A stretch of DNA of 48,325 nt from a candidate division WOR-3 bacterium (GCA_016935775.1 JAFGQF010000278.1:1-48325); one strand, 5' to 3'. Counted from the stretch's first letter, positions 26,464-46,667 are shown. Notes: generated by a model from the sequence alone, not told the origin. Program-made: numbers and translations.

Positions 26464-26485
26464 GATGGGCGGTGCGCTTGCCGGC

Positions 26486-26513: not shown

Positions 26514-26522
26514 GGCGGTCTG

Positions 26523-27836: not shown

Positions 27837-27840
27837 CGCC

Positions 27841-30650: not shown

Positions 30651-30738
30651 CCAATGCGCATCACCATAGCGGGCGCAGACGGGGTGACGGTCCCGGCGGG
30701 TTGCGTTCAGCACCCCCGCACGGTCACCCGAAGCTAAG

Positions 30739-33515: not shown

Positions 33516-33518
33516 TCG

Positions 33519-35024
33519 CTACCCCCCCAGCACCATCTGCGCATAAGTAAGCGGAATCGTCAGCACCTTGGCGGCGGGGTTGACAATCCAGTCGAGTACC
33601 GGGCGGAAACCCAGGCCGAATGCCAGTGCCAGGGCAGTAAGCATAACCAGCGCCACGAGAATCGGCGCCGGAGCTTCTCGCACGAGGCTGGAATTCCGGT
33701 CCCGGTTCACGAACAGCACGTTGTTGATTACCTTCAGCAAGTAGCCGAGCGTCAGGACGCTGAACAAACCGGCTACGATCGCAGGCCAGTACATCCGTGC
33801 CTCAACCGCGCCCACGATGATGAACAGCTTTGAGAAGAAACCGGCAAACGGCGGAACGCCGCTCATCGACAGTGACCCGAGGACATAGGACCAGGAAGTC
33901 ACCGGCATGTTCCGTTCGAGTCCGCCCAGGTTGCCGATCTCGCGGGTCCCGGTCTGCCGCTCGATAGACCGCGAGGCCAGAAAGAGAAGTCCCTTGGTAA
34001 CTGCGTGGCTCAGAACATGGAACAGGGCACCGACAATCGCCCAGTAGTTGCCGATGCCCAGACCGAGCACGATGTAGCCGACCTGGCTGACCGTTGAGTA
34101 CGCCAGCAGTCGCTTGTAGTCCTTCTGGTTGATTGCCAGCAGCGATGCGGCGATGATCGACAGCAAACCCAGGCCGACCAGCAAATTGAAGAACTGCGGG
34201 GCCACCGACCTCGTCAACCCGAAGACATTGAACACAACCCGGCTCATCGCGTAAACCCCGAGAACCTTGATGAAAACGCCCGAGAGCATTGCCGAAACCG
34301 GCGCGGGCGCCGAGAGGTGTGCGTCGGGCAACCAGGAGTGGAATGGCATCATCGCCATCTTGATGGAGAACCCGACAAGCATCGTAGCCAGGACGAACCA
34401 GGACAACGGCGTCAGTCCACCCGCCTGCAGAACTCGCGCCATGTCGGCCATGTTCAGCGTCGAGGTGTGAGCGTACAGCATCGCCACCGATAGGAGTATC
34501 AGGAGACTGCCGACCTCGCCCATAACCATGTACTTGAAACCGGATTCGAGCTCCTCGGCCCGCGTCCCGAACGCCACCAGCGCGTAGGAAGCGATCGCCG
34601 CGATTTCGATGAAGACAAACATGTTGAACATGTCACCGGACAGGGCGACCCCGTTCAGACCTGCCAACAGCAACATAAACAGGCTGTAGTACTTCCAGCG
34701 GCCGGTGTACTGGTCCAGGTATCGAGTCGAGAACAGCAGGGCCGGGAAACCTACCAAGTTGGTGATCAGAACGACCAGGGCAGTCAGCGAGTCGTAGACC
34801 AGTACGATGCCGACCGGCGGCATCCAACCGCCCATCGCGTAGACGGCGGGGAGTGATCCGCCCGCCAGCGCGGCGACACCGTATACTGCGAAACCAACCA
34901 GCACCGCGCCCACAAGATTACCAACGACGTCGGCCAAGCCTTTCCAGAGCCTCGACAGCAACGGGATCAGGAACGCTCCACAGAGCGGCACGATTATGAA
35001 GAGCGGCAGCATCCTGGTCAGCAC
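33519..35024 (-). CDS. mrpD: MrpD/NuoM-type antiporter-like subunit
   Basis: 501 aa and polytopic, with the Proton_antipo_M core MPFHSWLPDAHLSAPAPVSAMLSGVFIKVLGVY and LLAYSTVSQVGYIVLG. Confidence 0.9.
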   Translation of the reverse strand: MLTRMLPLFIIVPLCGAFLIPLLSRLWKGLADVVGNLVGAVLVGFAVYGVAALAGGSLPAVYAMGGWMPPVGIVLVYDSLTALVVLITNLVGFPALLFSTRYLDQYTGRWKYYSLFMLLLAGLNGVALSGDMFNMFVFIEIAAIASYALVAFGTRAEELESGFKYMVMGEVGSLLILLSVAMLYAHTSTLNMADMARVLQAGGLTPLSWFVLATMLVGFSIKMAMMPFHSWLPDAHLSAPAPVSAMLSGVFIKVLGVYAMSRVVFNVFGLTRSVAPQFFNLLVGLGLLSIIAASLLAINQKDYKRLLAYSTVSQVGYIVLGLGIGNYWAIVGALFHVLSHAVTKGLLFLASRSIERQTGTREIGNLGGLERNMPVTSWSYVLGSLSMSGVPPFAGFFSKLFIIVGAVEARMYWPAIVAGLFSVLTLGYLLKVINNVLFVNRDRNSSLVREAPAPILVALVMLTALALAFGLGFRPVLDWIVNPAAKVLTIPLTYAQMVLGG

Positions 35025-35025
35025 A

Positions 35026-35364
35026 TCATCCCCTTAGGCGCCGAATCTCGGTGATGTCGAACGTGTGGTACTTCTCATAGATGCGCATGGCGAAGGCAAG
35101 CATGAGTGCCGTGGTGGCCAGCCCGATGACAATCGAGGTCAGCACCAACGCCTGCGGCAGCGGGTCCACGAAGTCCTGCGTCATCCCCAGCCTCGTGATG
35201 ATTGGAGCGATCGCGCCCTGCTTGAAGCCGATGAAAGCGAACAGCAGGTTCACAGCGTACTCCATCAGGCTGAACCCGATGATAATCTTGATGATGTTGC
35301 GCTTGAGAACAATTGCGTACAACCCCAAGAGGAAAAGCAACAGGCAGGCGATGAACGGTACCAC
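35026..35364 (-). CDS. mrpC: MrpC/NuoK-like subunit
   Basis: VVPFIACLLLFLLGLYAIVLKRNIIKIIIGFSLMEYAVNLLF... is the MnhC/NuoK pattern. GTG 35364 lies 2 nt after the upstream stop, within ORF 35026..35853. Confidence 0.8.
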   Translation of the reverse strand: MVPFIACLLLFLLGLYAIVLKRNIIKIIIGFSLMEYAVNLLFAFIGFKQGAIAPIITRLGMTQDFVDPLPQALVLTSIVIGLATTALMLAFAMRIYEKYHTFDITEIRRLRG

Positions 35365-35366
35365 GG

Positions 35367-35807
35367 CTAATCCTTCATCACGAAGCGGGAAGCACCGAGC
35401 GCAAGGAAAATGGCGAAGAGCCCGGCCCCGACCTTCATTGCGATCGCTATATTGGCAAGCGGAATCGTGCCGGCACTGAACAGCGTCAGCGGTTCTCCGA
35501 CCTTCGGCCAGAGGTTTGACAGGAACTGGTGCCCGGCAAGGTAACCGGCAAGCCCTATGGCAAGGAAACCCAACCCGCCGAGGCTTTCGAAGACCGACGA
35601 GAAGGTGTAGCGGTGCTGCTCGACGTTTTCGACAGAACCGAAGGCCAGTGACACGAGAATGAAGGCTGCCGCAATCAGCACGCCCCCGGCGAACCCGCCA
35701 CCCGGGGTTAGATGCCCGTGCAGGACAATATAGCAACCGAACAGGAAGAGCATCCCGGCGACGAGCCTCGTCACCGATTGGACGATCACAGTCATTCCCC
35801 GGCTCAT
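35367..35807 (-). CDS. mrpB: MrpB/MnhB subunit
   Basis: LHGHLTPGGGFAGGVLIAAAF is the MnhB signature. ATGA overlap with the upstream gene. Confidence 0.85.
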   Translation of the reverse strand: MSRGMTVIVQSVTRLVAGMLFLFGCYIVLHGHLTPGGGFAGGVLIAAAFILVSLAFGSVENVEQHRYTFSSVFESLGGLGFLAIGLAGYLAGHQFLSNLWPKVGEPLTLFSAGTIPLANIAIAMKVGAGLFAIFLALGASRFVMKD

Positions 35808-36358
35808 GCGTGCTCCTCCCCGGCATCGGCCTTCCGACCGATCTGCCGGACAATCGTCAGTACACCAACCACGGCGGTGAAGAGGACAACCGCCTCGCCG
35901 ATGGTATCGTACGCCCGGAAATCAAGCACTATCGCGGTCACCAGATTGGCGGCGCCGCTCTGATTCAGGCCGACTGCCAGGTAGTTGCCTGCCACCCGCA
36001 TCAACGGGGAACCGAAAACCGGCAACTCGCGCAGGACACTGGTCATGACGGCAACGAACATCAACACGAAAATCCCGTACAGTACCGCCGGCAGAATCAT
36101 CCGCGACGTTATGCGCAACTGGACGGTGCTGTCGTCATGGGTAGTTCGCAGGATAACAGCCGCGAAGAACACGACCGCCAGGATCTCGACGACGATCTGG
36201 ACGATTGCGAGATCTGGAGCCTGGACGAGGATGAACAGGATGGCCACGCTGAACCCGACCATTCCCATCGAAACTGCCGCTGCAAGCAAATCCTTTATCT
36301 CGATAGCGACCACCGCCGCAGCCAACATCGCCACCAGCAGAACGTATAGCTCAATCAT
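35804..36358 (-). CDS. MbhD/MbhE-like (DUF4040 + MnhB-related) membrane subunit
   Basis: An N-terminal DUF4040-like helix bundle is followed by GAANLVTAIVLDFRAYDTIGE, the motif seen at the MrpA C-terminus and in MbhE. Confidence 0.75.
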   Translation of the reverse strand: MIELYVLLVAMLAAAVVAIEIKDLLAAAVSMGMVGFSVAILFILVQAPDLAIVQIVVEILAVVFFAAVILRTTHDDSTVQLRITSRMILPAVLYGIFVLMFVAVMTSVLRELPVFGSPLMRVAGNYLAVGLNQSGAANLVTAIVLDFRAYDTIGEAVVLFTAVVGVLTIVRQIGRKADAGEEHA

Positions 36359-36365
36359 CGTCGCG

Positions 36366-38270
36366 TTACCTGAGCACCAGGATTAGGTAGAACAGCGCCG
36401 CCCCGAAGAACACCCATGAAACGTAGAGCGGAAGCATGCCGGTCATCAGCTTGGAGACACCGGCACCGACGACCAGCACGAATCGGCCGAGGAGCCCGAA
36501 TGCCTTGTCAATTGTCTCGTCCAGCACAACTCGGAGGGCGCTGCCCAGCCCGCCAAGAACCCCACGCACCCAGTTGAACAGGTCGAACGAGCCAGCCTCG
36601 CCGAACCTGAGCAGGTCGCCAAGCACCGGCAGATTCTTGACCGAGGAATAGAAGGCGGTGCCCGTCACCCGGCTCTCCTCGTTGTCTGCGATCCGCTCAC
36701 CGCCGACGAAGGTGCGGCCGGCAACAGGCTTGCGGGCGGTACCAAGCAGGTAAATCACCGCCCCGACGCCAAGTGCAATGAACATCAGCACCGTAACGAG
36801 CTCCGGTTGCCAGATCCCGATCGGGTCGACATCAAACGGCAGGGACGGATAAATCAAGTGACGCAGCGGGAGCCAGTAGGCAAACACGCCGAAGGCAATG
36901 CAGAGCAGTGCCAACGAAATGGTCGGCAACCACATCGTGAAACCGCCCTCGCGAACACGGCTTAGTTCGGCCGGCCGCTGGCCGAAAAAGACCGCGTGCA
37001 GCAGCTTCAGGAACGAGGCCAGTGTTAACACGCTGCCGAGCATCGCCGCCACCAAGAAGACCGGGAAGAGCCGGTTACCCTCGCGGGCGATTTCAACCAC
37101 GCCCTGGTAGACCATCCACTTGGAAACGAAGCCGTTGAGCGGCGGCACGCCGGCGATCGCCATCGCGCAGACCAAGAACGAGAAGAAGGTCAGCGGCATC
37201 TGCCGGGCGAGGCCTCCGAGCTTGTCGATCTCGTCGGTCTTGGTCCAGTGCTCGACCGTGCCGGAGGAAAGGAACAGGCCGGTCTTGTAGATCGAGTTGT
37301 TGAGCATGTGGAAGAGTCCGCCGGCTATGCCAATCGGCGTGCCGGTGCCGATTCCCAGCACCATGTAACCGACCTGCGACACGGCATGGAATGAGAGCAG
37401 CCTCGTTACCCGCTTCTGGACCAGCGCCATTATGACGCCACCGAGGATTGTGACCGCGCCGACCGCCATCAGAACATTGCGCAGCGCCATGTTGCTGGCG
37501 ATGTTGAACATGCTGACCGAGAGCCGGGTCAGCAGGTAAATGCCGAGCAGCTTGTCGATCGAGGCCGGGATCAACGCCATGACCGTCGCTGGGGAGGTCT
37601 CGGATGCCTGCGGTATCCAGCTGTGCAGCGGCATCGATCCGGCCTTGGCCAGCGCGCCGACAGCCACCAGAACGAAGGCCGTGATCATCAACGGGTCATT
37701 GAGCGGCATCGGGGCACGAGGCACGAGGTCGACCCAGCCGTTCTTCACCAATAACAACGCGACGCCCAGCAGCATCGCGAAATCGCTCAGTCCGACGATC
37801 ACCAGAGCCTTGCTTGCCGCCCGCTCTGCGCCCGTACGACCGACGAGCAGGATGCCGTAAAGCAACACCAGCAACAGTCCCCAGAAGAACAGCAGGGTAG
37901 GCAGGTTTGCGGCCAGCAGGACGCCGTTGGCCCCGGCCAGCGCGAGCATCACGTAAAGGAAGTAACCACGCACGCCCGTCCAGCTCTTCATGTAGCGGAA
38001 CGAGAACAGCGTTACAAGGACGCCGAAGGCGGCAACGAACAGCAACACGAACCCGGACAGGGCATCGAGCCTGAAACTGACATTCAGGCCGGTAAACCTG
38101 ACCAGCTCAAAAACCGCCGGGGATCCCCGCGAACTGATGAACAGGCGAACAGCGAAATAGAGGGTGAGAACCGCCCCGATGAAGCTGAACTCGTTCCTCA
38201 ATCGGCCAATCAGCCAACCAAACAGCCCGGCCGCGATTGGAACCAGGACAACCAACAGCAACGGCGTCAT
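36366..38270 (-). CDS. NuoL/MrpA-type antiporter-like subunit (divergent)
   Basis: 634 aa and polytopic. It has the Proton_antipo_M-like core MPLHSWIPQASETSPATVMALIP and LLSFHAVSQVGYMVLG, plus a long C-terminal extension as in NuoL/MrpA. Confidence 0.8.
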   Translation of the reverse strand: MTPLLLVVLVPIAAGLFGWLIGRLRNEFSFIGAVLTLYFAVRLFISSRGSPAVFELVRFTGLNVSFRLDALSGFVLLFVAAFGVLVTLFSFRYMKSWTGVRGYFLYVMLALAGANGVLLAANLPTLLFFWGLLLVLLYGILLVGRTGAERAASKALVIVGLSDFAMLLGVALLLVKNGWVDLVPRAPMPLNDPLMITAFVLVAVGALAKAGSMPLHSWIPQASETSPATVMALIPASIDKLLGIYLLTRLSVSMFNIASNMALRNVLMAVGAVTILGGVIMALVQKRVTRLLSFHAVSQVGYMVLGIGTGTPIGIAGGLFHMLNNSIYKTGLFLSSGTVEHWTKTDEIDKLGGLARQMPLTFFSFLVCAMAIAGVPPLNGFVSKWMVYQGVVEIAREGNRLFPVFLVAAMLGSVLTLASFLKLLHAVFFGQRPAELSRVREGGFTMWLPTISLALLCIAFGVFAYWLPLRHLIYPSLPFDVDPIGIWQPELVTVLMFIALGVGAVIYLLGTARKPVAGRTFVGGERIADNEESRVTGTAFYSSVKNLPVLGDLLRFGEAGSFDLFNWVRGVLGGLGSALRVVLDETIDKAFGLLGRFVLVVGAGVSKLMTGMLPLYVSWVFFGAALFYLILVLR

Positions 38271-38279
38271 CTCATCTCC

Positions 38280-39698
38280 TCAAACACCTGCGACACCCGT
38301 TGTTGCCTCGAGGAAACGTCCGAGGAACGGGAGTATCACTCCCAAGGCAACGGTCGCCGCCGCTAGCAACACGACGATTGCGGTCATCAGACCCGACTCG
38401 CGCCCGACAACTCCGGGACGCGGCTCGCCGAGGAAAATCCTGTAGAGCCTGATCATGTAGAGAGCAGTCATCACGGCGGCGATGAGAGCACCGATTGCAA
38501 TCACGAGATTGCCACGGACCGCGGCCAGAATCACATACAACTTTGCCCAGAAACCAAGAAAAGGAGGGAACCCGATGACCGAAAGCATCAGCACCGCCGT
38601 CGCCGCAGCGGTCACAGGCATCGACTTCGCCAGCCCGCTCAACTCAGCGAGCCGATGCTGCCCGGTCGACCTTTCCACCACTCCCATTGCCATGAACAGC
38701 CCGGCCTTCGCCAGGCAATGAGCGACAATGTATGCAAGTCCGGCCGCCAGGCCGAACGACGAAACAAAGGCGAAACCGATGAAGATGTAACCCAGCTGGC
38801 TGATAGTGGAATAGGCCAGCACGCGCTTGTAGTCACGTGCCTGGAGTGCGCCCCCGGCTGCCAGCAGGGAGCTGACAACCCCCACGCCACCTATCAGCAG
38901 GGGCCACCAGTCCGGCAGCACTATCGGGCTGAGGATAAAGAGCCTGACATAGACGATCAACCCGGCCTTCTCGACAACACCGGAAAGCAGCGCACCGACC
39001 GACAACGGGGCGGCACTCTGGGCATCGGGAACCCAGATGTGCATCGGAACACTGGCCGACTTGGTCAGGATACCCAGCAAGATCAGGAACATCGCCCACG
39101 GACTGATCGTCGGCCCGGTCAACTGGCCCGGGCTGAAGGTCTGGTGCTGGACGAACACGAAGGCGAAGCCAATCAACATCAGGACCGAACCGGCGAAGGT
39201 AATCAGCAGGGCCTTCTGGGCTGCGGCAATCTCCTTCTCCGAACGGTAGAAGGCCACCAACCGCCAGGTCGCAATGCCGGCGAGCTCCCAGAACAGGTAC
39301 ATCGCCAGCAGGTTGCGGGCGAAACAGAGACCAACAATGGCACCCAGCATGACCAACAGGAAACCGAAGTAGTCGTCCTGGAATTCGTGGTCCTTGAGGT
39401 AGCTGGTCGAGTAGAGGGTAGCCAGCAACCACACGAACGCGAAGACGCTCGCCAGCAGCAACCCGACCCCGTCGACGACCATCAGCGGTGACGGAAGCAC
39501 GCGAAGAATGCCCATCTGCCAGAGGGCATGGCTTCCGGACCCGGCCCGGAACCAGAGCATCACGACAAGGACCAGCGTGGTTGCGCTTGCCAGGACTGCG
39601 ATGGTGTTGCGTGCCGCCCTGGGCAAGCGTCGGAACAGGACTAGCAACGAGCCGACAACAATCGGAACCAGAATTGCCGCTGCCAGGAAGGCGCTCAC
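38280..39698 (-). CDS. MbhH/NuoN-type antiporter-like subunit
   Basis: VPMHIWVPDAQSAAPLSVGALLSGVVEKAGL and VLAYSTISQLGYIFIG are present. GTG 39698 overlaps the upstream stop (GTGA), within ORF 38280..39818. Confidence 0.85.
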   Translation of the reverse strand: MSAFLAAAILVPIVVGSLLVLFRRLPRAARNTIAVLASATTLVLVVMLWFRAGSGSHALWQMGILRVLPSPLMVVDGVGLLLASVFAFVWLLATLYSTSYLKDHEFQDDYFGFLLVMLGAIVGLCFARNLLAMYLFWELAGIATWRLVAFYRSEKEIAAAQKALLITFAGSVLMLIGFAFVFVQHQTFSPGQLTGPTISPWAMFLILLGILTKSASVPMHIWVPDAQSAAPLSVGALLSGVVEKAGLIVYVRLFILSPIVLPDWWPLLIGGVGVVSSLLAAGGALQARDYKRVLAYSTISQLGYIFIGFAFVSSFGLAAGLAYIVAHCLAKAGLFMAMGVVERSTGQHRLAELSGLAKSMPVTAAATAVLMLSVIGFPPFLGFWAKLYVILAAVRGNLVIAIGALIAAVMTALYMIRLYRIFLGEPRPGVVGRESGLMTAIVVLLAAATVALGVILPFLGRFLEATTGVAGV

Positions 39699-40876
39699 CG
39701 TCCCATCCTCGCGCGAACACGCTCGGTCTTCTGCCAGGAAAGCTTCAAGAGTTCGTTCCAGGTGTACTTCAGCCGTCCGTCCTCGAACGCCGCCATCCGC
39801 TCGGTGCAGCAGTAGCACGGGTCCACCGCCGCCAGCGTGAGCGCGGCATCAGCGATGGTCCCGCCGACGCAGGCAACCTTGTTGGAAGCGATGTTCATGT
39901 AGCTGGGTGCCCGGACTTTGTGCCGCAGCGGCCGATTGGTCCCGTCGGAACGCATGTAGTGGAAGACTTCGCCGCGCGGGGCCTCGGTCCGGCCACAACC
40001 CTCACCCGGCGGGACCTCCTCGATCCGGGCCTCGATCGGTCCCTCCGGGATACGATCGAGGCACTGCCGGATAATCTTCACCGACTCGATCATCTCCAAC
40101 ATCCGAACCTTGGTCTTGGCAAGCACGTCACCTTCCGGGAAGCAGATCACGTTCCAGTCGACCAAGCCGTAGGCGGCGTGCGGCTCGTCACGTCGGACGT
40201 CCCAGGGAACCCCGGACCCGCGCGAAGTCGGCCCGGTGGTCGAGTATGCCAGGGCCTGCGCCCGGGTCAGGATACCGACCCCCTCGAGCCGCGAGAGAAT
40301 CACCGGGTCATCGAGCACTGCCTTAGTCAACATCCAGACCTTCTTCTCGACCAGGTCCATCGCGTCCCGGATCGGCTTGACCATTTCGGGCCTGAGGTCG
40401 TGCCGAACTCCGCCCGGCTTGTTCATCGCGTAGTGGTTACGGTTGCCGACCAGCATCTCGAACACCTCGAGGACGTGCTCGCGATACTTCCAGGCCCACA
40501 TCCACACCGTGTTGTAGCCGATGAAGTGGCCGGCCAAGCCAACCCAGAGCAGGTGCGAGTGAATCCGCTCGAGTTCGTGGACGATGGTTCGGAGGTACTT
40601 CGCCCGCTCCGGGATCTCGAGGTTGCAGATGTCCTCAACCGCCATCACCGCAGCCATCGGGTGCGAGTTCGAACAGATACCGCAGATCCGCTCGACCAAG
40701 AACGGAACCTGGTCATAGGTCAGCTCTGGCGAGATGAACTCGTGTCCACGGTGGTTGTAGCCGATGTGGATCTCGATGTCCACCACTTTCTCGCCCTCGA
40801 CAACCAGCTTGAAGAACTCCGGTTCTTCCTGCAGAGGATGGTACGGGCCGATCGGGACGATTCGCCTACCGGCCAT
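39695..40876 (-). CDS. Group-4 [NiFe]-hydrogenase large subunit (NuoD/MbhL/HycE-like)
   Basis: The N-terminal Ni-Fe motif ERICGICSNSH and the C-terminal motif DPCYCCTER are both present. The latter is followed by a 33-aa tail. Confidence 0.9.
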   Translation of the reverse strand: MAGRRIVPIGPYHPLQEEPEFFKLVVEGEKVVDIEIHIGYNHRGHEFISPELTYDQVPFLVERICGICSNSHPMAAVMAVEDICNLEIPERAKYLRTIVHELERIHSHLLWVGLAGHFIGYNTVWMWAWKYREHVLEVFEMLVGNRNHYAMNKPGGVRHDLRPEMVKPIRDAMDLVEKKVWMLTKAVLDDPVILSRLEGVGILTRAQALAYSTTGPTSRGSGVPWDVRRDEPHAAYGLVDWNVICFPEGDVLAKTKVRMLEMIESVKIIRQCLDRIPEGPIEARIEEVPPGEGCGRTEAPRGEVFHYMRSDGTNRPLRHKVRAPSYMNIASNKVACVGGTIADAALTLAAVDPCYCCTERMAAFEDGRLKYTWNELLKLSWQKTERVRARMGR

Positions 40877-41318
40877 GCTTCTCCGCCCTTCGTTCGTAGT
40901 CCCGTCGCAGGGGCTTCCAGTCCGGGTTCCAGTCGGTGTCGGAAGTCAGTAGCGGCTGCATGTCCGGGTGACCAGGAAAATCAATGCCCAGCAGTTCGTG
41001 CATCTCCCGCTCGATCCAGTCGGTGGAAGGGAACCACCCGGCCTGCGAGTCAACCTGAGGGTCATCCTTGGGAACAACGACCTTCAGGGTGTAGAGCCCG
41101 CCGCTGTCGTCGTCCGAGAAATGGTAGAGCACCTCGAAGCCCTCGCGGGTATCGATGCCGGTGCAGATGCACAGCCTCATGCCGCGCTCCTGGTGCAGGA
41201 ACCGACAGGCATCGGTCAGCCTCTCACGGGGAACGCGGATGTAAAGCCGGTTCTCATTGTGCCGGTGGTAGTCGGCTTCCGGGAACCGCTCGCGCAGCTT
41301 AGACTCGGCTTCTCTCAT
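40866..41318 (-). CDS. NuoC/MbhK-like subunit
   Basis: 150 aa. ...LCICTGIDTREGFEVLYHF...WIEREMHELLGIDFPGHPD is the NuoC pattern. ATGA overlap with the NuoB-like gene. Confidence 0.85.
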   Translation of the reverse strand: MREAESKLRERFPEADYHRHNENRLYIRVPRERLTDACRFLHQERGMRLCICTGIDTREGFEVLYHFSDDDSGGLYTLKVVVPKDDPQVDSQAGWFPSTDWIEREMHELLGIDFPGHPDMQPLLTSDTDWNPDWKPLRRDYERRAEKHGR

Positions 41319-41731
41319 AGCTTACTCAGCGCCTTCACCACGCCGAGTATCATCGCCTCCGGCTTGGGCGGGCAGCCGGGTATGTAGGCGTGGACCGGCA
41401 GGTGCTTGTCATAGGGACCGACCACGTTGTAGGAATTGCGGAAGATGTGGGTGTTGCACGTGCAGGAACCGATACAGATGACCAGGCACGGCTTCGCGGC
41501 CTGCTCGTAAACCTCGAGCACGCGGGGCAGGCTCTTGCGATTGATCACGCCAGTCACCAGCAGTGCGTCGGCGTGACGGGGCGACCCCACGAGCACGACC
41601 CCGAAGCGCTCCACGTCGTAGCGCGGGGTGAGCAGTTCGAGAATCTCGATGTCGCAGTTGTTGCAGGGCGCGGCCGCCAAGTGATAGACCCACGGCGACT
41701 TCTTCAGGCCCCAGAGTCCGAGTTTGCTCAT
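41315..41731 (-). CDS. Hydrogenase small subunit (NuoB/MbhJ/HycG-like)
   Basis: MSKLGLWG...APCNNCDIE...CIGSCTC...IPGCPPKPE carries the four Cys of the proximal [4Fe-4S]. The ATG lies inside ORF 41315..41884. ATGA overlap. Confidence 0.9.
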   Translation of the reverse strand: MSKLGLWGLKKSPWVYHLAAAPCNNCDIEILELLTPRYDVERFGVVLVGSPRHADALLVTGVINRKSLPRVLEVYEQAAKPCLVICIGSCTCNTHIFRNSYNVVGPYDKHLPVHAYIPGCPPKPEAMILGVVKALSKL

Positions 41732-42690
41732 AGTCTCGCGTATGCCAGAATCACGGCGAGTATACCGAATCCCCCGAGCAGAAGCCAGAAGAACCTCAGT
41801 GCGTGGTCGATACGGAGCCGTGGATTGGTGTTGCGAATCAGGATCACGAGCACGACAATCGCCAGGAACTTGAGAATCGCCCACCAGTCACCGAACCCGC
41901 CCCACAGCACGGTGATCAGGAACAGCGGCAGCAGGAACAGCATCATCGCCCGGGTGATTTTGAACATCGCCAGAGCGACGCCGGAATACTCGGCGTAGAC
42001 GCCGGTCATAATCTCCTGCTCGGCCTCTGCCTGGTCGAACGGCACCAACCCGAGCTTGGCCTGGACAGCCAGCAGCACCAACACGGCGGCAATGACACCG
42101 GAGACCGAGTACAAGAACGGTCCTGCCTGCTGCTGGGCCATCACGATGTGACCGAGCCGGATGGTCCAGATGCCGCCCGAGACCTGGGCGGTCTTGATGA
42201 TCGGCACGACCAACGCCAGCAGGAAGGGAAGCTCGTACCCGAAGTACAGTGTCATCTCCCGCGAGGCACCGACTGCGGACAAGGGGTTTCGGCTGGCCGA
42301 GGCGCCGATGATCAGTCCCAGCGGCGGCAACGCAAAGAGATAGACCAGCACTATCAGGTCGCCGACAAAGGACCCCTGCGGGTTGAGGTTGACGTTGAAC
42401 AGCAGCACGGCGGTGATCGTCATCGAGATCATCCCGAGCATCGGGGCGAGCAGAAAGACCAGACGGGATGCCCCCTCAGGTACGATCGTCTGCTTGAGCA
42501 GCAGCTTGAACAGGTCGGCGAACGGCTGAACGAAAGGCGGCCCCTTGCGGTACTGGACCCGGGCTGTCACTACCCGGTCCACCCAGCTCAGCACGAAGCC
42601 TATAACCACCGAAAAAAGGAATCCGGGGAACACCAGCAGGCTGAAAGCCAGCCGCCAGCCGGTCCAGGCGCCCTGCCAGAACCCGCTCAC
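41728..42690 (-). CDS. NuoH/MbhM/HycD-like membrane subunit
   Basis: RVQYRKGPPFVQPFADLFKLL...ASREMTLYFGYELP...PFDQAEAEQEI..GVYAEYSG is the NuoH signature. The GTG 42690 start gives a GTGA overlap. Confidence 0.9.
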   Translation of the reverse strand: MSGFWQGAWTGWRLAFSLLVFPGFLFSVVIGFVLSWVDRVVTARVQYRKGPPFVQPFADLFKLLLKQTIVPEGASRLVFLLAPMLGMISMTITAVLLFNVNLNPQGSFVGDLIVLVYLFALPPLGLIIGASASRNPLSAVGASREMTLYFGYELPFLLALVVPIIKTAQVSGGIWTIRLGHIVMAQQQAGPFLYSVSGVIAAVLVLLAVQAKLGLVPFDQAEAEQEIMTGVYAEYSGVALAMFKITRAMMLFLLPLFLITVLWGGFGDWWAILKFLAIVVLVILIRNTNPRLRIDHALRFFWLLLGGFGILAVILAYARL

Positions 42691-43154
42691 GGCCGCCTCC
42701 AGTGAACCGACCGGGCGGCGATGCCGACCCCGGTCTTCACTTCCTTGAGCTCCGACTCCTCGACGTACTGCAACGCGCCGGTCGGGCATGATGCCGCGCA
42801 CCGCGGCCCGCCCGCGCGGTCCGAGCAGAGGTTGCACTTCTGCGAGGTGCTGCGCAGCAGGTAGGTGTCCATCACGCCAAACGGACAGGCCAGCACGCAG
42901 GACCGACAGCCGACGCAGTGGAAACTGGAGCGCGAGACGATACCTGTGTCCGGGTCCTTGCGGATGACCTCGAACGGGCAGGCGGCCATGCACAGCGGCT
43001 CAGCACAGTGCCGGCAGGAGAGCGGGAAATATGCATCCGGCGTGACCTCGGCGTAGCGGACCCGCGCCTCGTGTTTGAACCGGCTCTGGCAGGCCGCCTC
43101 GCACGACCGGCAGCCGATGCAGTAGTCCATCCGCAGCACGAGTCGCTTCGCCAT
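42687..43154 (-). CDS. HycB/FdhB-like 4x[4Fe-4S] ferredoxin subunit
   Basis: MAKRLVLRMDYCIGCRSCEAAC...CRHCAEPLCMAACP...CVGCRSCVLACPFG...CNLCSDR...CAASCPTGA matches a HycB-type ferredoxin. Confidence 0.85.
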   Translation of the reverse strand: MAKRLVLRMDYCIGCRSCEAACQSRFKHEARVRYAEVTPDAYFPLSCRHCAEPLCMAACPFEVIRKDPDTGIVSRSSFHCVGCRSCVLACPFGVMDTYLLRSTSQKCNLCSDRAGGPRCAASCPTGALQYVEESELKEVKTGVGIAARSVHWRRP

Positions 43155-43155
43155 C

Positions 43156-44808
43156 TCAGTGTAGCATGTAGCGAGCGCCGCGGCGGTCCGGGGCATGCTC
43201 GGACGGCGCCTGAACCCTGGACGCCAGCTTCTCGATCTTCACATTGACCGGGGCGACCGTGGTCATCCCGGAAACCTCATCAACCGCGAGCGGAAACAGC
43301 GCGCGATTCTCGTGCACGTTGGTACCGACCGTCGCCGTCCCGGCGGGAATCTGCCCGGAAACGAGAACGCCGAAATCGCGTGCCCCGACCGGGCTGGTGA
43401 CACGGACAAAGCTGTCGCCGTCAACTCCCAGCGACCCGGCATCAGTCGGGTTCAGCGCCAGCCGGTCCTCGGGCTCGTAGAAACCCCGCAGCCCGATTGC
43501 CTTCTTCTCACCCAGCAACAGGACGCCCTCGCCGCCCCGTTTCAACCCGGCCGCCTTGTGCGCCATCTCGACGACCGCAGCGGGCTTGTGCTCGACCCGG
43601 GCAGGCAGGTCCGCCTCGGCTGCGGTCCCGAGCAACTCGACAACCCGGCCGAAATCGCGACTGCCGCTCAAGGGAGGCGCCAGCGGCTCGCGGCTGGCCG
43701 GGCCCCAGTAGGTCGAGGCGGTCGCGGCCCGCTCGAGCTCCGCGGTCACCGGCAGGACCAGCCCGGGCACCGGCGGGTCGGGCACGAAGATCGAAGTCGC
43801 GACCCGGTACTCGGCCCTCGCCGCCTCCGGGAACACCTCGGCATAACTGTCGGGATACATCCCGCCGGTCCAGAACAGCAGCCGGACCTCGCCGGCCTTG
43901 AGCGCCGCGCGCAGGGCGGTGAAATCTTCGCCCCCCGGCGGCAGGGAAGTCTCCCGGAAACCGACGAACGGCTTGCCGGCGGCCTTCGCAACCAGCTGGC
44001 CAGCCAGGCTGTGCAGCAACGGGTGGAAGACGCGCCCGAAATGGGCCGCGACCCCGACGAAACCCGGGACGGCGGGCGCCAGCATCGCCGCCGCGGCTTC
44101 CAGTTGCCCGCGAGCAACCCCGGCCGCCGTCGCCAGCTTGTCCAGATCGGCCTTGATATTCTTGTCCAGCAAGGCGGCCAGGGCAACCATCGCCAGCGGC
44201 TCGGTTCCCGGCCGGACCTGGATGAATGAGTGGGCGAAACCGGACTGCCGGGTGCGGACCGAGTCGATAACCACCAGCCGGTTCTTCCGGTCGGCGTAGC
44301 GCGCGTCTAGCATCCGCCAGACCGCCACCGGGGAGGTGTTGAACACGTCGCCGACCAGCAGCATCGCCTTGGCGAACTCGACGTCGGCCAGGGTGGCGTC
44401 CTTCGTTCCCTCGAGCCGGCAGCCGAGCGCGTTCTCGGGTTCGATGTGGCCGCAGACAACGTGCTTCGTGCCAATCTCCCTGGCCAGGCCGAACAGCCGC
44501 CGGACTTCGTCTTCGCCCCGGCCTCGGCTGTACACGAGTGCAACCTGCTCCGGCCTGACCGCCGCGCGCCAGCCCCGCACCAGGTTCGCCGCCTCGTCCC
44601 AGGAAATCGCCCGGCCATCAAGCAACGGGTAGGCCAGCCGCTTCGGGTGGTCGATGACTATGCTCGCCGAGTTGCCGCGCGGGCAGAGCCGACCCCGGTT
44701 GACCTCGGCCTCGGACGGATACTCCATCCGGTACTGGTAGCCGTCAAACACCACCGCCGAGGTGCAGCCGTTGAGGCAGAACGGGCAGGTGGTCTTCCTG
44801 GTTTCCAT
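43156..44808 (-). CDS. Molybdopterin (Mo/W-bisPGD) oxidoreductase family subunit, FdhA/FdhH-like, non-canonical
   Basis: METRKTTCPFCLNGC...(26 aa)...LCPRG is the N-terminal [4Fe-4S] motif. It has a MopB-like body and a C-terminal beta-barrel-like end (FVRVTSPVGARDFGVLVSGQIPAGT). At 550 aa it is shorter than typical Fdh, and there is no in-frame TGA. Confidence 0.75.
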   Translation of the reverse strand: METRKTTCPFCLNGCTSAVVFDGYQYRMEYPSEAEVNRGRLCPRGNSASIVIDHPKRLAYPLLDGRAISWDEAANLVRGWRAAVRPEQVALVYSRGRGEDEVRRLFGLAREIGTKHVVCGHIEPENALGCRLEGTKDATLADVEFAKAMLLVGDVFNTSPVAVWRMLDARYADRKNRLVVIDSVRTRQSGFAHSFIQVRPGTEPLAMVALAALLDKNIKADLDKLATAAGVARGQLEAAAAMLAPAVPGFVGVAAHFGRVFHPLLHSLAGQLVAKAAGKPFVGFRETSLPPGGEDFTALRAALKAGEVRLLFWTGGMYPDSYAEVFPEAARAEYRVATSIFVPDPPVPGLVLPVTAELERAATASTYWGPASREPLAPPLSGSRDFGRVVELLGTAAEADLPARVEHKPAAVVEMAHKAAGLKRGGEGVLLLGEKKAIGLRGFYEPEDRLALNPTDAGSLGVDGDSFVRVTSPVGARDFGVLVSGQIPAGTATVGTNVHENRALFPLAVDEVSGMTTVAPVNVKIEKLASRVQAPSEHAPDRRGARYMLH

Positions 44809-44811
44809 CGC

Positions 44812-45627
44812 CTAGACGAACGGGTCCGGGATACCCTTGACCTGGTCCCAGGTGAGGACCGGGCCGTCCTTGCAGGTGAAGTACGGTCCCAGCTTGCAGT
44901 GGCCGCACTGGCCGAGGCCGCAGGACATGTTGGTTTCCATCGACAGGTAGATGTTCTGGCCCTGGAAACCGGCCTCGAGCAGCTTCATCGTCACGAACTT
45001 CATCATTATCGGCGGCCCGCAGACCACGGCGATGCTCTCCGCCTCGTTGCAGGGTATCTCGTCCATCAGGCAGGTGACGACGCCGACCTTCTTCATCCAC
45101 TTCTCGTCCGAGACGTCCACCGACAGGTCGATGTCGACCTTCTTCAGCTTCTCCCATTCCGGGATCAGGTACTTGTAGACGATATCGGCCGGGGTCCGCG
45201 CGCCGTAGCGGAGAAAAACCCGGCCGTACTTGTCGATCTCGTGGGTCAGAGCGAGGAAGAGCGCGCGCAGCGGGGCCAGCCCGACGCCGCCGCCGACGAT
45301 GTAGATATCCCGTCCCTCGAACTTCTCGAGCGGGTAGCGGGCACCGTACGGCCCGCGGATGCCGACCTTGTCCCCGACCTTGAAATTGAAGAGCGCGCCG
45401 GTCGCCCGGCCCACCTTCATTATCGTCATCTCGATGAGGTCGCGGTTGAAATGGGATGAACTGGGCGTGAACGGCGCCTCGCCGAACCCGGGCATCGTCA
45501 GTTCGATGAACTGCCCGGCAAGAAACGGCACCTCCTGCTCGGGTCTGAGCACGAAGGTACGGATGTTCGGGGTCTCGTCAATCGTCTTGATGATCTCGGC
45601 CGAGATGGGCTGGAAGATGTTGGTCAT
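44812..45627 (-). CDS. FAD/NAD(P)-binding oxidoreductase with a C-terminal [2Fe-2S] (AsrB / sulfhydrogenase gamma HydG / PyrK-like)
   Basis: The sequence runs MTNIFQPISAEIIKTIDETPNIRTFVL...APFTPSS...IVGGGVGLAPL...MSCGLGQCGHCKLG. The ATG lies inside ORF 44812..45933. ATGA overlap. Confidence 0.85.
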   Translation of the reverse strand: MTNIFQPISAEIIKTIDETPNIRTFVLRPEQEVPFLAGQFIELTMPGFGEAPFTPSSSHFNRDLIEMTIMKVGRATGALFNFKVGDKVGIRGPYGARYPLEKFEGRDIYIVGGGVGLAPLRALFLALTHEIDKYGRVFLRYGARTPADIVYKYLIPEWEKLKKVDIDLSVDVSDEKWMKKVGVVTCLMDEIPCNEAESIAVVCGPPIMMKFVTMKLLEAGFQGQNIYLSMETNMSCGLGQCGHCKLGPYFTCKDGPVLTWDQVKGIPDPFV

Positions 45628-46667
45628 TGCAGGACGTCCAGGACCACCTTGCGCACATCGATCTTGCCCATACAGACCGCGGTACAGCGACCGCAACCCG
45701 AGCAGGCGGGCATCCCCTGCCAGGTCTTGAAATGGCTGAACTTGCAGAAAAAACGGTTGTAGAACCGCTTGACGAACTCGGCGCGCGGGTTGGCCCCGCC
45801 GCCGACCCGGGCATAAGCCGCGATGTAGCAGGCGTCCCAGACCTTGGTCCGCTCCATCTCGCCCTGCCCCCTGGCCTTGTCGTAGAGCAAGAAGCAGTAG
45901 CAGGTCGGGCAGGCCATCAGGCAGCCGTAACACTCGACGCAGTCGGCCGCGTGCTTCGACCAGAACTCCTTGTCCTGGTTCCGTTGCCAGATCCGGTCGG
46001 CCGTGTCCGGGGCGAAGCGCTTCGGGTTCACCTCGGCCAGCCGCTTGCCGGCGGCCTCGCGGCTCGCCTGTCGCGCCGCGAGTTGGGCCTCGGTCGCCTC
46101 GACCGCTTGGGAACTCCCCAGTAATTCCTCGCCCCGCCCGGTCAGCGGCTCCAGCACCCAGCCGCCCTCGACCACCGACAGGGCGACATCGGCCTCGTCC
46201 TTCTCCTCGTCGCCGGCAAAGGGCCGGTTGCCGACGAGGTTGCAGAAACAGGTGTCGGCCGGGCTCGGGCAGTCGGCGACGACAACGCAGGTCGCTGCGC
46301 GGCGCCGGGCGTAGGCTTCATCCTTGAAATCGCCCTCGACGAACATCTTGCGGTTCACGCGCAGGGCGACCGCGTCGCAGGCTGAAGCCCCGAACAAAAC
46401 CCGTTTCTCGGGCTCGGGCGAGACGAACTTGTCCGGGAAGGTGGCGACCTTCTCGCGCGGGTTGAAGAAGAAACTCTTGACCGGCTCCGACGCCCGGATG
46501 CGCTCGAGTCCCCACTCCGGTGCGTCGGCTGCGCCCAACATCCCGGGGTCGAGCCGCTGCCAGTGGACCTGGTCCTTGATTATCGCCGGGAAAAACACCA
46601 CCCGGTCCGCGACAAGAACCGACAGCCAGGCCTTCTGCTTCTCTGTCGGGAGAAACCGGGGCTTCAC
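45624..46667 (-). CDS. 4Fe-4S protein of the AsrA / sulfhydrogenase beta (HydB) type
   Basis: 347 aa from GTG 46667. CVECYGCLMACPTCYCF and CSGCGRCTAVCMGKID are present. The upstream part of the 514-aa ORF is Arg/Gly/Asp-rich junk and contains the promoter. Confidence 0.8.
   Translation of the reverse strand: MKPRFLPTEKQKAWLSVLVADRVVFFPAIIKDQVHWQRLDPGMLGAADAPEWGLERIRASEPVKSFFFNPREKVATFPDKFVSPEPEKRVLFGASACDAVALRVNRKMFVEGDFKDEAYARRRAATCVVVADCPSPADTCFCNLVGNRPFAGDEEKDEADVALSVVEGGWVLEPLTGRGEELLGSSQAVEATEAQLAARQASREAAGKRLAEVNPKRFAPDTADRIWQRNQDKEFWSKHAADCVECYGCLMACPTCYCFLLYDKARGQGEMERTKVWDACYIAAYARVGGGANPRAEFVKRFYNRFFCKFSHFKTWQGMPACSGCGRCTAVCMGKIDVRKVVLDVLQ

What the first reader, a model, noticed from the sequence alone, without database searches (positions are those of the whole stretch)
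43156..46667. Unusual electron-input module: AsrA/AsrB-like pair plus a short FdhA-like subunit lacking the canonical (Sec/Cys)-His
The first three genes resemble anaerobic sulfite reductase AsrA/AsrB, or sulfhydrogenase beta/gamma, followed by a MopB protein in the position where AsrC or a hydrogenase would sit. The MopB protein keeps the N-terminal CX2CX3C...X26...C [4Fe-4S] motif. It is only 550 aa and has no in-frame TGA. Where formate dehydrogenases read ...GTNNVD..(U/C)H..., it reads GTKHVVCGHIEPEN, i.e. Cys-Gly-His. It may therefore be a Cys-type variant with unknown substrate. Alternatively it may be a cofactor-less scaffold analogous to the NuoG C-terminal domain, wiring NAD(P)H through AsrAB-like and HycB-like subunits to the hydrogenase.
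Basis: partly seen in the sequence, partly recalled or inferred. Interest (0 to 1): 0.7.

Follow-up and report, generated by a model that had tools for sequence, protein, structure and literature searches.

The report
NAD(P)H-type input module on membrane hydrogenase
This operon encodes an ion-pumping membrane [NiFe]-hydrogenase whose electron-input arm combines an NAD(P)H-binding flavoprotein pair with a degenerate formate-dehydrogenase-like subunit; similar clusters have been seen in uncultured bacteria, but none has been characterised.

Summary
On the minus strand, 43156-46667 encodes three proteins:
- a HydB/AsrA-like poly-FeS protein;
- a HydG/AsrB-like FAD/NAD(P)H/[2Fe-2S] protein;
- a 550-aa MopB protein with an intact N-terminal [4Fe-4S] motif and no in-frame stop.

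A HycB-like 4x[4Fe-4S] protein and a complete Mrp-Mbh-type group 4 [NiFe]-hydrogenase follow directly.

C119 and H121 vary within the family. No alignment puts a conserved Cys, Sec, Ser or Asp at the Sec140 position. The ligand loop is about 4 residues shorter than in FdhH and matches NuoG in length. The Arg333 equivalent is not conserved. It is therefore not an ordinary Cys-type formate dehydrogenase.

The gene order is identical in every one of 33 WOR-3 loci that reaches that far. It recurs in a much more divergent sister clade. A similar cluster was called "enigmatic" in Saganbacteria in 2019.

Most likely this is an NAD(P)H-linked, ion-translocating hydrogenase in which the MopB is a fossil, FeS-bearing adaptor like NuoG. 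Whether it still binds Mo/W-bisPGD is unresolved. I rate it a new variant of a known kind, interest about 0.6.

The parts
45624..46667 (-). HydB/AsrA-like poly-FeS subunit (347 aa, GTG start)
   Evidence: Pfam Fer4_22 2e-23. NCBIfam sulfhyd_ShyB 5.6e-36 and AsrA 1.2e-23, both far below the equivalog cut-offs. Best solved relative is P. furiosus sulfhydrogenase I beta, 9nez_B, 7.8e-31. Start set by alignment to the L001 gene.
44812..45627 (-). HydG/AsrB-like FAD / NAD(P)H / [2Fe-2S] subunit (271 aa); overlaps the upstream stop by 4 nt
   Evidence: Pfam FAD_binding_6, NAD_binding_1 and DHODB_Fe-S_bind. TIGR02911 201 bits (cut-off 288.6). 9nez_C sulfhydrogenase gamma 5.1e-46. The GGGVGLAP motif and the C-terminal Cys cluster are visible in the sequence. 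Mean 80.6% identity across WOR-3 loci.
43156..44808 (-). Degenerate FdhH-like MopB subunit (550 aa) with the FS0 [4Fe-4S] motif and no Sec/Cys-His dyad
   Evidence: AF2 model pLDDT 93.6. Foldseek TMq 0.75-0.77 to FDH/Nap and 0.65-0.67 to NuoG/Nqo3. hhalign score 625 against an FDH profile and 359 against a NuoG profile.
42687..43154 (-). HycB/CooF-like ferredoxin, 16 Cys = four [4Fe-4S] motifs (155 aa from the ATG at 43154; a longer ORF starts at 43196)
   Evidence: Pfam Fer4_11 1.3e-18. PDB hits HDCR HycB3 7.4e-21 and E. coli HycB (7z0s_B) 5.8e-16. Start by alignment to L001.
41728..42690 (-). NuoH/MbhM/HycD-like membrane subunit
   Evidence: Pfam NADHdh 9.3e-59; start candidate is the GTG at 42690.
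41315..41731 (-). NuoB/MbhJ-like hydrogenase small subunit
   Evidence: Pfam Oxidored_q6 1.7e-26; 88% mean identity across loci.
40866..41318 (-). NuoC/MbhK-like subunit
   Evidence: Pfam Complex1_30kDa 2.1e-27.
39695..40876 (-). [NiFe]-hydrogenase large subunit (NuoD/MbhL/HycE-like) with both CxxC pairs
   Evidence: Pfam Complex1_49kDa 4.3e-70 and NiFeSe_Hases 6.8e-16. RICGICSNSH and DPCYCCTER in the translation. Closest solved are MbhL 6cfw_L 2.6e-78 and HycE 7z0s_E 1.2e-72.
32420..39560 (-). Mrp-type membrane module: two MrpD/NuoN-like subunits, one MrpA/NuoL-like subunit, MbhD/E, MnhB+NuoK-like, MnhE, MrpF and MnhG
   Evidence: Pfam Proton_antipo_M (three times), MbhD, MbhE, Oxidored_q2 and MNHE. 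Small MrpF- and MnhG-like ORFs seen in translation. Same genes in L001 and L002. Boundaries are approximate.
31810..32427 (-). NuoI/MbhN/HycF-like 2x[4Fe-4S] subunit; last gene of the operon
   Evidence: Pfam Fer4_21, Fer4_7 and Fer4. An equivalent gene ends the operon in L002, L035 and L046.

Best explanation
**What it is.** The region is the 5' part of a single operon of about 15 kb (31810-46667, minus strand). The operon encodes an Mrp-Mbh-type (group 4) membrane-bound [NiFe]-hydrogenase. Its cytoplasmic arm is not a ferredoxin, CO or formate module. It is a four-protein redox module.

**Proposed mechanism (inferred, not shown).**
1. NAD(P)H binds the HydG/AsrB-like flavoprotein.
2. Electrons pass FAD -> [2Fe-2S] -> the FeS clusters of the HydB/AsrA-like subunit.
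3. They continue through the FS0 [4Fe-4S] cluster of the MopB subunit and/or the four clusters of the HycB-like subunit.
4. They then pass the NuoI-like and NuoB-like clusters to the NiFe site.
5. The Mrp module couples the reaction to H+/Na+ translocation.

**Direction.** The complex would either use the ion gradient to drive NAD(P)H -> H2 at low H2, or conserve energy from H2 -> NAD(P)+ at high H2.

**Role of the MopB subunit.** It descends from a formate dehydrogenase but has lost the Sec/Cys-His-Arg catalytic set. It most likely serves as an FeS-bearing adaptor or scaffold, as the C-terminal domain of NuoG does in complex I.
For: **Domain content and operon structure**
-.
- Overlapping or abutting start and stop codons between asrA-like/asrB-like, MopB/hycB-like and hycB-like/nuoH indicate one transcription unit.

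**Synteny**
- The order Fer4_22 - AsrB-like - MopB - HycB-like - NuoH - NuoB - NuoC - NiFe large subunit - Mrp is the same in every one of 33 WOR-3 loci that reaches that far.
- The same order is found in sister-clade loci L045, L046 and L048.

**Loss of the FDH catalytic set**
- Positions 119/120 read CG, SG, SS, CS, ST, SC, RS, AS or CV across the family.
- HMMER, MAFFT and hhalign never put a conserved Cys or Sec opposite U140.
- hhalign deletes the FdhH segment A-R-V-U, while the loop aligns without a gap to NuoG.
- The column aligned with R333 holds Arg in only 2 of 37 family sequences.
- TIGR01591 scores 68.6 bits against a cut-off of 666.

**Conservation pattern**
- The FS0 cysteines and R44 are invariant.
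- MopB (mean 55.7% identity) and the AsrA-like subunit (54.3%) are the least conserved soluble subunits. AsrB-like is 80.6%, NuoB 88.0%, NuoD 78.6% and HycB 70.3%.

**NAD(P)H module**
- FNR-type domains with a GGGxGxxP motif; closest to the NADPH-binding gamma subunit of sulfhydrogenase I.
Against: - No experiment exists and no coordinates were available, so the FeS path is inferred from homology only.
- Residues at the classical dinucleotide-binding motif positions stay near-invariant down to 25% identity. These are G153/D154/P160, D182, E203 and P353/E359, which correspond to FdhF G174/N176/P182, D202, N223 and P444/E450.
- An acidic residue in the ligand loop is present in 30 or more of 37 sequences.
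- The fold and profile are closer to FDH than to NuoG.
- All of this would also fit a still cofactor-bearing enzyme.
- NAD(P)H -> H2 is uphill under standard conditions, so the physiological direction is uncertain.
- Ferredoxin could still be a co-substrate through the NuoI-like or HycB-like subunits.
Confidence: 0.5

Rival explanations
1. The MopB subunit still binds Mo/W-bisPGD but with a non-canonical, acidic (Glu/Asp) or absent protein ligand. It catalyses oxidation or reduction of an unknown substrate. Electrons are shared between H+ (via the hydrogenase) and NAD(P)+ (via the AsrAB-like pair).
For: - Near-invariant residues sit at the classical MGD-motif positions, and FS0 plus R44 are invariant.
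- A near-invariant acidic residue (E125 here, Asp in the sister clade) lies in the ligand loop. From my own knowledge, NarG-type enzymes use an Asp ligand.
- Fold TMq is 0.75-0.77 to FDH/Nap against 0.65-0.67 to NuoG. hhalign scores 625 (FDH) against 359 (NuoG).
- A size of 550 aa equals FwdB+FwdD, which bind a full cofactor (own knowledge). JGI annotates some homologues as FwdB/FwdD.
Against: - The loop is 4 residues shorter than in FDHs and has NuoG's length.
- E. coli NuoG, which has no cofactor, also keeps the FS0 Cys, the Arg after the fourth Cys, G-E/D after the beta-strand, E615 (E359 equivalent) and a Glu in the same loop column.
- Two segments of about 66 and 86 residues are missing relative to FDHs.
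- The Pfam Molybdopterin and Molydop_binding scores are below gathering.
- This is the least conserved soluble subunit together with AsrA.
- No Moco, fdhD or transporter genes were found in the window.
Confidence: 0.3
2. It is an ordinary formate hydrogenlyase (Fdh-Mrp-Mbh, as in Thermococcus onnurineus) with a Cys-type formate dehydrogenase.
For: - The best sequence and fold matches of the MopB are formate dehydrogenases.
- The HycB-like partner and the Mrp-Mbh hydrogenase follow the FHL layout.
Against: - No conserved Cys or Sec at the ligand position, no His141 and no conserved Arg333.
- TIGR01591 scores 68.6 against a cut-off of 666.
- No formate transporter was found in the window.
- The extra NAD(P)H module is not part of known FHLs.
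Confidence: 0.05
3. It is a sulfur-compound reductase. H2 or NAD(P)H would reduce polysulfide/S0 or sulfite at the AsrA/HydB-like or MopB subunit. This would be a membrane-bound counterpart of sulfhydrogenase, AsrABC or Psr.
For: - AsrA/AsrB and sulfhydrogenase beta/gamma are the nearest named families.
- From my own knowledge, MopB enzymes include polysulfide and thiosulfate reductases.
Against: - No AsrC/siroheme subunit is encoded in the operon.
- All NCBIfam equivalog scores are far below their cut-offs.
- PsrA-type enzymes need a Cys ligand, which is not conserved here.
- The NiFe ligands are intact, unlike in Mbs/Mbx.
Confidence: 0.1

Closest known systems
Fdh-Mrp-Mbh formate hydrogenlyase (Thermococcus onnurineus Fdh2-Mfh2-Mnh2) and E. 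coli FHL-1 (FdhF-HycBCDEFG, PDB 7Z0S/7Z0T)
   Same: - A MopB subunit with a single FS0 cluster sits next to a HycB-type four-cluster ferredoxin.
- Together they feed a group 4 [NiFe]-hydrogenase with NuoH/B/C/D/I homologues and, in Thermococcus, Mrp subunits.
- The large subunit is closest to MbhL (2.6e-78) and HycE (1.2e-72).
   Different: - The MopB here lacks Sec/Cys140, His141 and a conserved Arg333, and is 165 aa shorter than FdhF.
- An NAD(P)H-binding HydB/HydG-like pair is added.
- No formate channel gene is present.
NuoG / Nqo3 C-terminal domain of respiratory complex I (cofactor-less MopB)
   Same: - It is a MopB fold inside a complex-I-type machine next to an NAD(P)H-oxidising module.
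- It keeps the FS0/N7 cysteines and the Arg after the fourth Cys.
- The ligand loop has the same length and lacks Cys.
- G-(E/D) replaces G-x-N.

   Different: - It has no N-terminal 2Fe-2S/4Fe-4S NuoG domains.
- TIGR01973 scores 31 bits against a cut-off of 470.
- The profile is nearer to FDH (625) than to NuoG (359).
- The NADH module is AsrAB/HydBG-type (FAD), not NuoEF (FMN).
Sulfhydrogenase I/II (group 3b) beta and gamma subunits, P. furiosus (PDB 9NEZ); AsrA/AsrB of anaerobic sulfite reductase
   Same: - The first two proteins are homologous over nearly their full length.
- They show the same cofactor motifs: poly-FeS, and FAD/NAD(P)H/[2Fe-2S].

   Different: - They are attached to a membrane-bound group 4 hydrogenase, not a soluble group 3 hydrogenase, and not to a siroheme AsrC.
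- All equivalog scores are far below their cut-offs.
'Enigmatic' Mrp-Mbh-type hydrogenase cluster of Saganbacteria RX5A (Matheus Carnevali et al. 2019, PMC6349859, Supplementary Note 5)
   Same: [quoted passage not shown]
- The authors suggested it forms an 'oxidoreductase module'.
   Different: - It is known only from annotation, and no residue-level analysis or function was given.
- It comes from a different phylum. I could not retrieve those sequences, so direct orthology with this WOR-3 family is untested.
FDH-like OmeA/'FdhA' subunit of the Dehalococcoides organohalide-respiration complex (own knowledge, not tested here)
   Same: It is an FDH-derived MopB without the catalytic Sec/Cys. 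It is thought to act as an electron-transfer adaptor attached to a hydrogenase.
   Different: - It is periplasmic, partners a Hup-type (group 1) hydrogenase and has no NAD(P)H module.
- Only a weak N-terminal match to a Dehalococcoidia MopB was seen (L036, 29%).

Membership tests
Formate dehydrogenase H-type MopB (FdhF/FdhA) | N-terminal FS0 [4Fe-4S] motif CX2CX3C...C followed by a basic residue (K44) | tested here: met
   C8, C11, C15 and C42 are invariant. R44 stands in place of K44.
Formate dehydrogenase H-type MopB (FdhF/FdhA) | Sec/Cys metal ligand followed by His (U140-H141 in FdhH) | tested here: not met
   - HMMER, MAFFT and hhalign give three different local alignments. None places a conserved Cys or Sec at U140.
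- The loop is 2-4 residues shorter.
- C119 and H121 vary within the family.

Formate dehydrogenase H-type MopB (FdhF/FdhA) | Conserved active-site Arg (R333 in FdhH) | tested here: not met
   R285 of the window protein aligns with R333. The column reads G/V/A/F/Y/L/P in the family, with Arg in only 2 of 37 family sequences.
Formate dehydrogenase H-type MopB (FdhF/FdhA) | Score above the curated family cut-offs (TIGR01591; Pfam PF00384 and PF01568) | tested here: not met
   TIGR01591 68.6 against 666.25. PF00384 19.1 against 24. PF01568 26.1 against 26.8.
Formate dehydrogenase H-type MopB (FdhF/FdhA) | Binds Mo/W-bis(pyranopterin guanine dinucleotide) | not testable with these tools
   - Model coordinates could not be inspected.
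- Motif positions are conserved, but NuoG keeps several of them without a cofactor.
NuoG (complex I 75-kDa subunit) | N-terminal 2Fe-2S and 4Fe-4S ferredoxin-like domains ahead of the MopB part; equivalog score | tested here: not met
   No Fer2_4 or NADH-G_4Fe-4S_3 hits. TIGR01973 31.2 against 470.
NuoG (complex I 75-kDa subunit) | MopB fold without a metal-ligand residue; short ligand loop | tested here: met
   hhalign aligns the loop to NuoG without a gap, whereas the FDH profile needs a 4-residue insertion.
Group 4 membrane-bound [NiFe]-hydrogenase, Mrp-Mbh type | Large subunit with N- and C-terminal CxxC NiFe ligands, NuoB-like small subunit, NuoH/C/I homologues and Mrp antiporter-like subunits in one operon | tested here: met
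   - RICGICSNSH and DPCYCCTER.
- Pfam hits.
- MbhL 6cfw_L at 2.6e-78.
- The HydDB subgroup could not be assigned with these tools.
Anaerobic sulfite reductase AsrABC | AsrA and AsrB equivalogs together with the siroheme subunit AsrC | tested here: not met
   TIGR02910 83.9 against 323. TIGR02911 201.2 against 288.6. No AsrC-like gene in the operon.
Sulfhydrogenase (group 3b) HydBGDA | Beta and gamma subunits associated with group 3 alpha and delta hydrogenase subunits | tested here: not met
   Beta/gamma-like proteins are present but far below the equivalog cut-offs: 124 against 690 and 163 against 650. The hydrogenase is group 4 type.

The most novel reading that the evidence does not exclude
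**Main novel reading.** The short MopB family is a previously unrecognised class of Mo/W-bisPGD enzyme. The family comprises the WOR-3 clade plus a wider sister clade with a 'P-x-D' loop. Its metal would be ligated by, or adjacent to, an invariant Glu/Asp instead of Cys, Sec or Ser. It would act on an unknown substrate. A three-way junction would distribute electrons between NAD(P)+ and an ion-pumping hydrogenase.

**Alternative, equally unexcluded.** The complex is a living intermediate between formate hydrogenlyase and complex I.
Probability: 0.25. Interest if true: 0.85.

Novelty: new variant of a known kind. Interest (0 to 1): 0.6.

Why it matters
- **Origin of complex I.** Complex I is thought to have arisen from a membrane-bound hydrogenase or formate hydrogenlyase that acquired an NADH module and kept a dead formate-dehydrogenase domain (NuoG).
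- **What this complex shows.** It has that combination with different parts. It keeps a working NiFe site and an Mrp pump. It carries an FDH-derived subunit that has lost its catalytic residues and has a NuoG-length ligand loop. Its NAD(P)H module comes from the sulfhydrogenase/AsrAB lineage.
- **If the proposed activity is confirmed.** It would be an NAD(P)H-linked, ion-translocating hydrogenase, a type I do not know to have been shown biochemically. That would give fermenters a route to dispose of NAD(P)H as H2, or give hydrogenotrophs a route to make NAD(P)H from H2, without electron bifurcation.
- **Distribution.** It is fixed in gene order in 33 WOR-3 species-level genomes. It recurs in a much more divergent sister clade whose organisms I could not identify. 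It is therefore likely to matter for H2 budgets in anoxic sediments, hot springs and bioreactors.

Tried and rejected
1. **Genome scan with alignment A3.** The search for related loci with the very diverse alignment A3 failed because no conserved 7-10 column stretch exists. It worked with the closer alignment A4.
2. **Mo/W cofactor question through genome content.**
   - No Moco, fdhD, formate-channel or Mo/W transporter genes turned up among the window's larger ORFs, which were scanned with Pfam.
   - The WOR-3 survey's Table S4 lists tup/wtp transporters as patchy. The stored table is truncated to 44 genomes that I could not map to operon carriers, so this is inconclusive.
   - The tools do not allow browsing the closed genome CP070680.1 beyond +/-10 kb.
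3. **Literature.** WOR-3 papers (PMC12542636, PMC12285271, PMC7382037) do not discuss this complex. Group 4f/Ehf papers concern a different complex.
4. **PDB entry 9MQX.** It holds the best HycB-like hit but is a tungsten aldehyde oxidoreductase nanowire, which is irrelevant here.
5. **R44 as evidence for the cofactor.** I considered the invariant Arg after the fourth FS0 Cys as evidence for pterin contact. I rejected it because E. coli NuoG also reads C-D-R-G.
6. **'LP...EK.GT' motif.** I considered its retention as evidence for the cofactor. I rejected it because NuoG keeps it too.
7. **Small size.** I considered it as evidence for cofactor loss. I rejected it because FwdB+FwdD have the same combined size and bind a full cofactor (own knowledge).
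8. **Residue-level structural superposition.** It was not possible. Foldseek returns only global scores, and the model coordinates are not exposed.

Full report
**1. What is in the sequence**

The flagged region lies on the minus strand and holds three genes.
- An AsrA/HydB-like gene, 45624-46667 (GTG start, 347 aa).
- An AsrB/HydG-like gene, 44812-45627 (271 aa). Its start overlaps the upstream stop by 4 nt.
- A 550-aa MopB gene, 43156-44808, with no internal stop.

Pfam assigns:
- Fer4_22 to the first protein.
- FAD_binding_6, NAD_binding_1 and DHODB_Fe-S_bind to the second.
- Three weak hits to the third: Molybdop_Fe4S4 at 29.4 bits; Molybdopterin at 19.1 bits, below the gathering score of 24; and Molydop_binding at 26.1 bits, below 26.8.

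One correction: two genes, not three, precede the MopB gene.

**2. Surroundings**

The three genes open an operon of about 15 kb that runs down to 31810.
- A HycB/CooF-like protein with 16 Cys, enough for four [4Fe-4S] clusters.
- NuoH-, NuoB- and NuoC-like subunits.
- A NuoD-like [NiFe] large subunit that keeps both CxxC pairs (RICGICSNSH, DPCYCCTER).
- Three MrpA/D-like antiporter subunits, then MbhD/E, MnhB/NuoK-like, MnhE, MrpF and MnhG.
- A NuoI-like 2x[4Fe-4S] protein at the end.

The large subunit is closest to P. furiosus MbhL (6cfw_L, 2.6e-78) and E. coli HycE (7z0s_E, 1.2e-72). This is an Mrp-Mbh/FHL-type group 4 hydrogenase.

A complete rnfCDGEAB cluster (26523-31761, plus strand) converges on the operon end. 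A DUF1893/TM1506 gene is divergently transcribed upstream. No molybdenum-cofactor, fdhD or formate-channel gene turned up among the window's larger ORFs.

**3. The two flavoprotein-module subunits**

Their best solved relatives are the beta and gamma subunits of P. furiosus sulfhydrogenase I: 9nez_B at 7.8e-31 and 9nez_C at 5.1e-46.

NCBIfam finds the ShyB/HydB, AsrA, AsrB and HydG/ShyC models, all far below their equivalog cut-offs. The proteins belong to the wider HydB/AsrA and HydG/AsrB lineages. They are neither a sulfite reductase (no AsrC) nor a group 3b hydrogenase.

The AsrB-like protein has the GGGVGLAP nucleotide-binding motif and a C-terminal Cys cluster of the PyrK type. Of the four input-module subunits it is the most conserved, at a mean of 80.6% identity across WOR-3 loci.

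**4. The MopB subunit: what it keeps and what it has lost**

*Distribution.* Homologues of 520-570 aa are abundant and, where named, come almost only from candidate division WOR-3.

*Fold.* An AlphaFold2 model built on 95 sequences is confident (pLDDT 93.6, pTM 0.92). It matches formate dehydrogenases and Nap with TMq 0.75-0.77, and NuoG/Nqo3 with 0.65-0.67.

*Conservation across the family, down to 25% identity.*
- The four FS0 cysteines, R44 and G45 are invariant.
Positions 119/120 read CG, SG, SS, CS, ST, SC, RS, AS or CV. Position 121 is His or Tyr.

*Alignment to FDHs.* Four alignment approaches were used: HMMER against PDB FDHs, HMMER against E. coli FdhF, MAFFT and hhalign profile-profile. 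They disagree by a few positions in this loop. Depending on the method, U140 falls opposite E123, P124 or a 4-residue deletion. None puts a conserved Cys, Sec, Ser or Asp at the ligand position.
- hhalign needs a 4-residue insertion (A-R-V-U) in the FDH profile.
- It aligns the loop to a NuoG profile without any gap.
- R285 of the window protein aligns with FdhH R333. In the family that column is G/V/A/F/Y/L/P, with Arg in only 2 of 37 family sequences.
- Relative to FDHs, about 66 and 86 residues are missing in two segments.

The protein is therefore not an ordinary Cys-type formate dehydrogenase.

**5. Is it still a molybdo- or tungsto-enzyme? Unresolved**

Evidence for loss of the cofactor:
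- the points in section 4;
- the sub-threshold Pfam scores;
- MopB (55.7%) and the AsrA-like protein (54.3%) are the least conserved soluble subunits, against 70-88% for HycB-like, NuoD-like, AsrB-like and NuoB-like;
- several features are shared with cofactor-less E. coli NuoG: the C-x-R-G motif, G-(E/D) where FDHs read G-x-N, Glu in the same loop column, and E615 as the equivalent of E359.

Evidence for retention:
- G153/D154/P160, D182, E203 and P353/E359 are near-invariant. They sit at the motif positions of FdhF G174/N176/P182, D202, N223 and P444/E450. NuoG has lost D182, E203 and P353.
- An acidic residue in the loop (E125 here, Asp in the sister clade) is found in 30 or more of 37 sequences.
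- The overall profile is nearer to FDH (hhalign 625) than to NuoG (359).

I put the scaffold reading at about 0.5 and the cofactor-bearing reading at about 0.3.

**6. Conservation of the module**

- In the closed WOR-3 genome CP070680.1 (L001, 51% MopB identity) and in a 35%-identical homologue (L002) the gene order is identical.
- A scan of GTDB species genomes returned 33 WOR-3 or unnamed-MAG loci. Every locus with enough flank has AsrA-like - AsrB-like - MopB - HycB-like - NuoH - NuoB - NuoC - NuoD - Mrp.
- A profile search of 1.84 billion representatives found 200 proteins at E <= 1e-30. About 95 of the best 150 are short (450-620 aa) MopBs that also lack Cys-His and read 'x-(Y/F)-(L/I)-P-P-x-D'.
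- I looked up five of these. Three contigs show the same arrangement (L045, L046, L048). A fourth (L047) shows the HycB-like neighbour. The fifth (L049) is too short to tell. L046 ends with the HycI endopeptidase gene.

The module is therefore a fixed unit in a family much wider than the WOR-3 clade. I could not name the sister-clade organisms.

**7. Prior knowledge**

Matheus Carnevali et al. (2019, PMC6349859; preprint 10.1101/328856) described a similar cluster in Saganbacteria RX5A. They also noted related hydrogenases in Zixibacteria and Omnitrophica.
- They called it an 'enigmatic' Mrp-Mbh-type group 4 hydrogenase.
- It has an fdhH-like molybdopterin protein that phylogeny could not classify, plus asrA-like, asrB-like and cooF-like genes.
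- They suggested these form an oxidoreductase module and assigned no function.

Recent WOR-3 surveys do not discuss the complex. The arrangement is thus known from annotation only. The residue-level picture and its breadth are, as far as I could find, not described.

**8. Mechanism I consider most likely (inferred)**

Electrons would flow NAD(P)H <-> FAD and [2Fe-2S] (AsrB-like) <-> FeS clusters (AsrA-like) <-> FS0 of MopB and/or the four clusters of the HycB-like subunit <-> NuoI-like <-> NuoB-like <-> NiFe. The Mrp module would couple this to ion translocation.

- **Shown:** the cofactor motifs, the operon unity and the co-inheritance.
- **Inferred:** the docking order, the direction, the ion coupling and the passive role of MopB.

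H2 -> NAD(P)+ has a standard potential difference of about 94 mV (my own estimate), enough for roughly one ion per 2 e- at high H2. The reverse direction would consume the gradient to vent NAD(P)H as H2 at low H2. The adjacent Rnf cluster would link this to ferredoxin.

The architecture parallels complex I: an NAD(P)H module, a dead FDH domain and a NuoI/B/D/H core with antiporter subunits. Here, however, the NiFe site is live and the flavoprotein has a different origin.

**9. Verdict**

This is a real, strongly conserved and uncharacterised variant of the membrane-bound group 4 hydrogenase/FHL family.
- The 'Cys-type variant' reading is rejected.
- The 'NuoG-like scaffold wiring NAD(P)H to the hydrogenase' reading is the best-supported, but it is not proven.

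Noticed in passing
window 26523-31761 (+): A complete rnfCDGEAB cluster converges on the 3' end of the hydrogenase operon. Pfam hits: RnfC_N/Complex1_51K, NQR2_RnfD_RnfE, FMN_bind, two Rnf-Nqr, and FeS plus polyferredoxin for RnfB. The adjacency was not seen in L002 or L035, where the operon end is visible.
   Followed up: partly
window 46779-47243 (+): A DUF1893/TM1506 gene is divergently transcribed from the asrA-like gene. The same arrangement occurs in at least 16 WOR-3 loci and in L001. Its function and any link to the complex are unknown.
   Followed up: partly
window 35026-35853 (-): A single 275-aa ORF joins an MnhB-like N-terminal part to a NuoK/MnhC-like C-terminal part (Oxidored_q2 at residues 168-274). 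These are two separate genes in L001. It could be a fusion, or two genes in the same frame with an internal GTG start at 35364.
   Followed up: partly
window 32000-40000: GC falls to 0.59-0.62 (against 0.65-0.72 elsewhere) and AT skew rises to +0.2 to +0.3 over the membrane-subunit genes. This probably reflects the codon composition of hydrophobic proteins encoded on the minus strand.
   Followed up: no
L045 10001-11695; L046 1557-3347; L048 595-2343: A sister clade of short MopBs reads 'P-P-x-D' in place of (U/C)-H and has F/Y/L in place of Arg333. They sit in the same AsrA/AsrB/HycB/group 4 hydrogenase context. In three of them the third FS0 Cys is replaced by Asp. The source organisms were not identified.
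   Followed up: partly
window 43156-43200 (C-terminus of MopB, residues 537-550): The C-terminal tail (PDRRGARYMLH) has pLDDT below 50 and is present only in the closest relatives. The longer alternative start of the hycB-like gene (43196) would overlap it by 41 nt.
   Followed up: no
window 24419-27319 (-): The methionyl-tRNA synthetase ORF is 966 aa, but the catalytic domain begins at residue 300. The upstream 300 codons overlap the rnfC gene on the other strand, so they are probably not translated.
   Followed up: no
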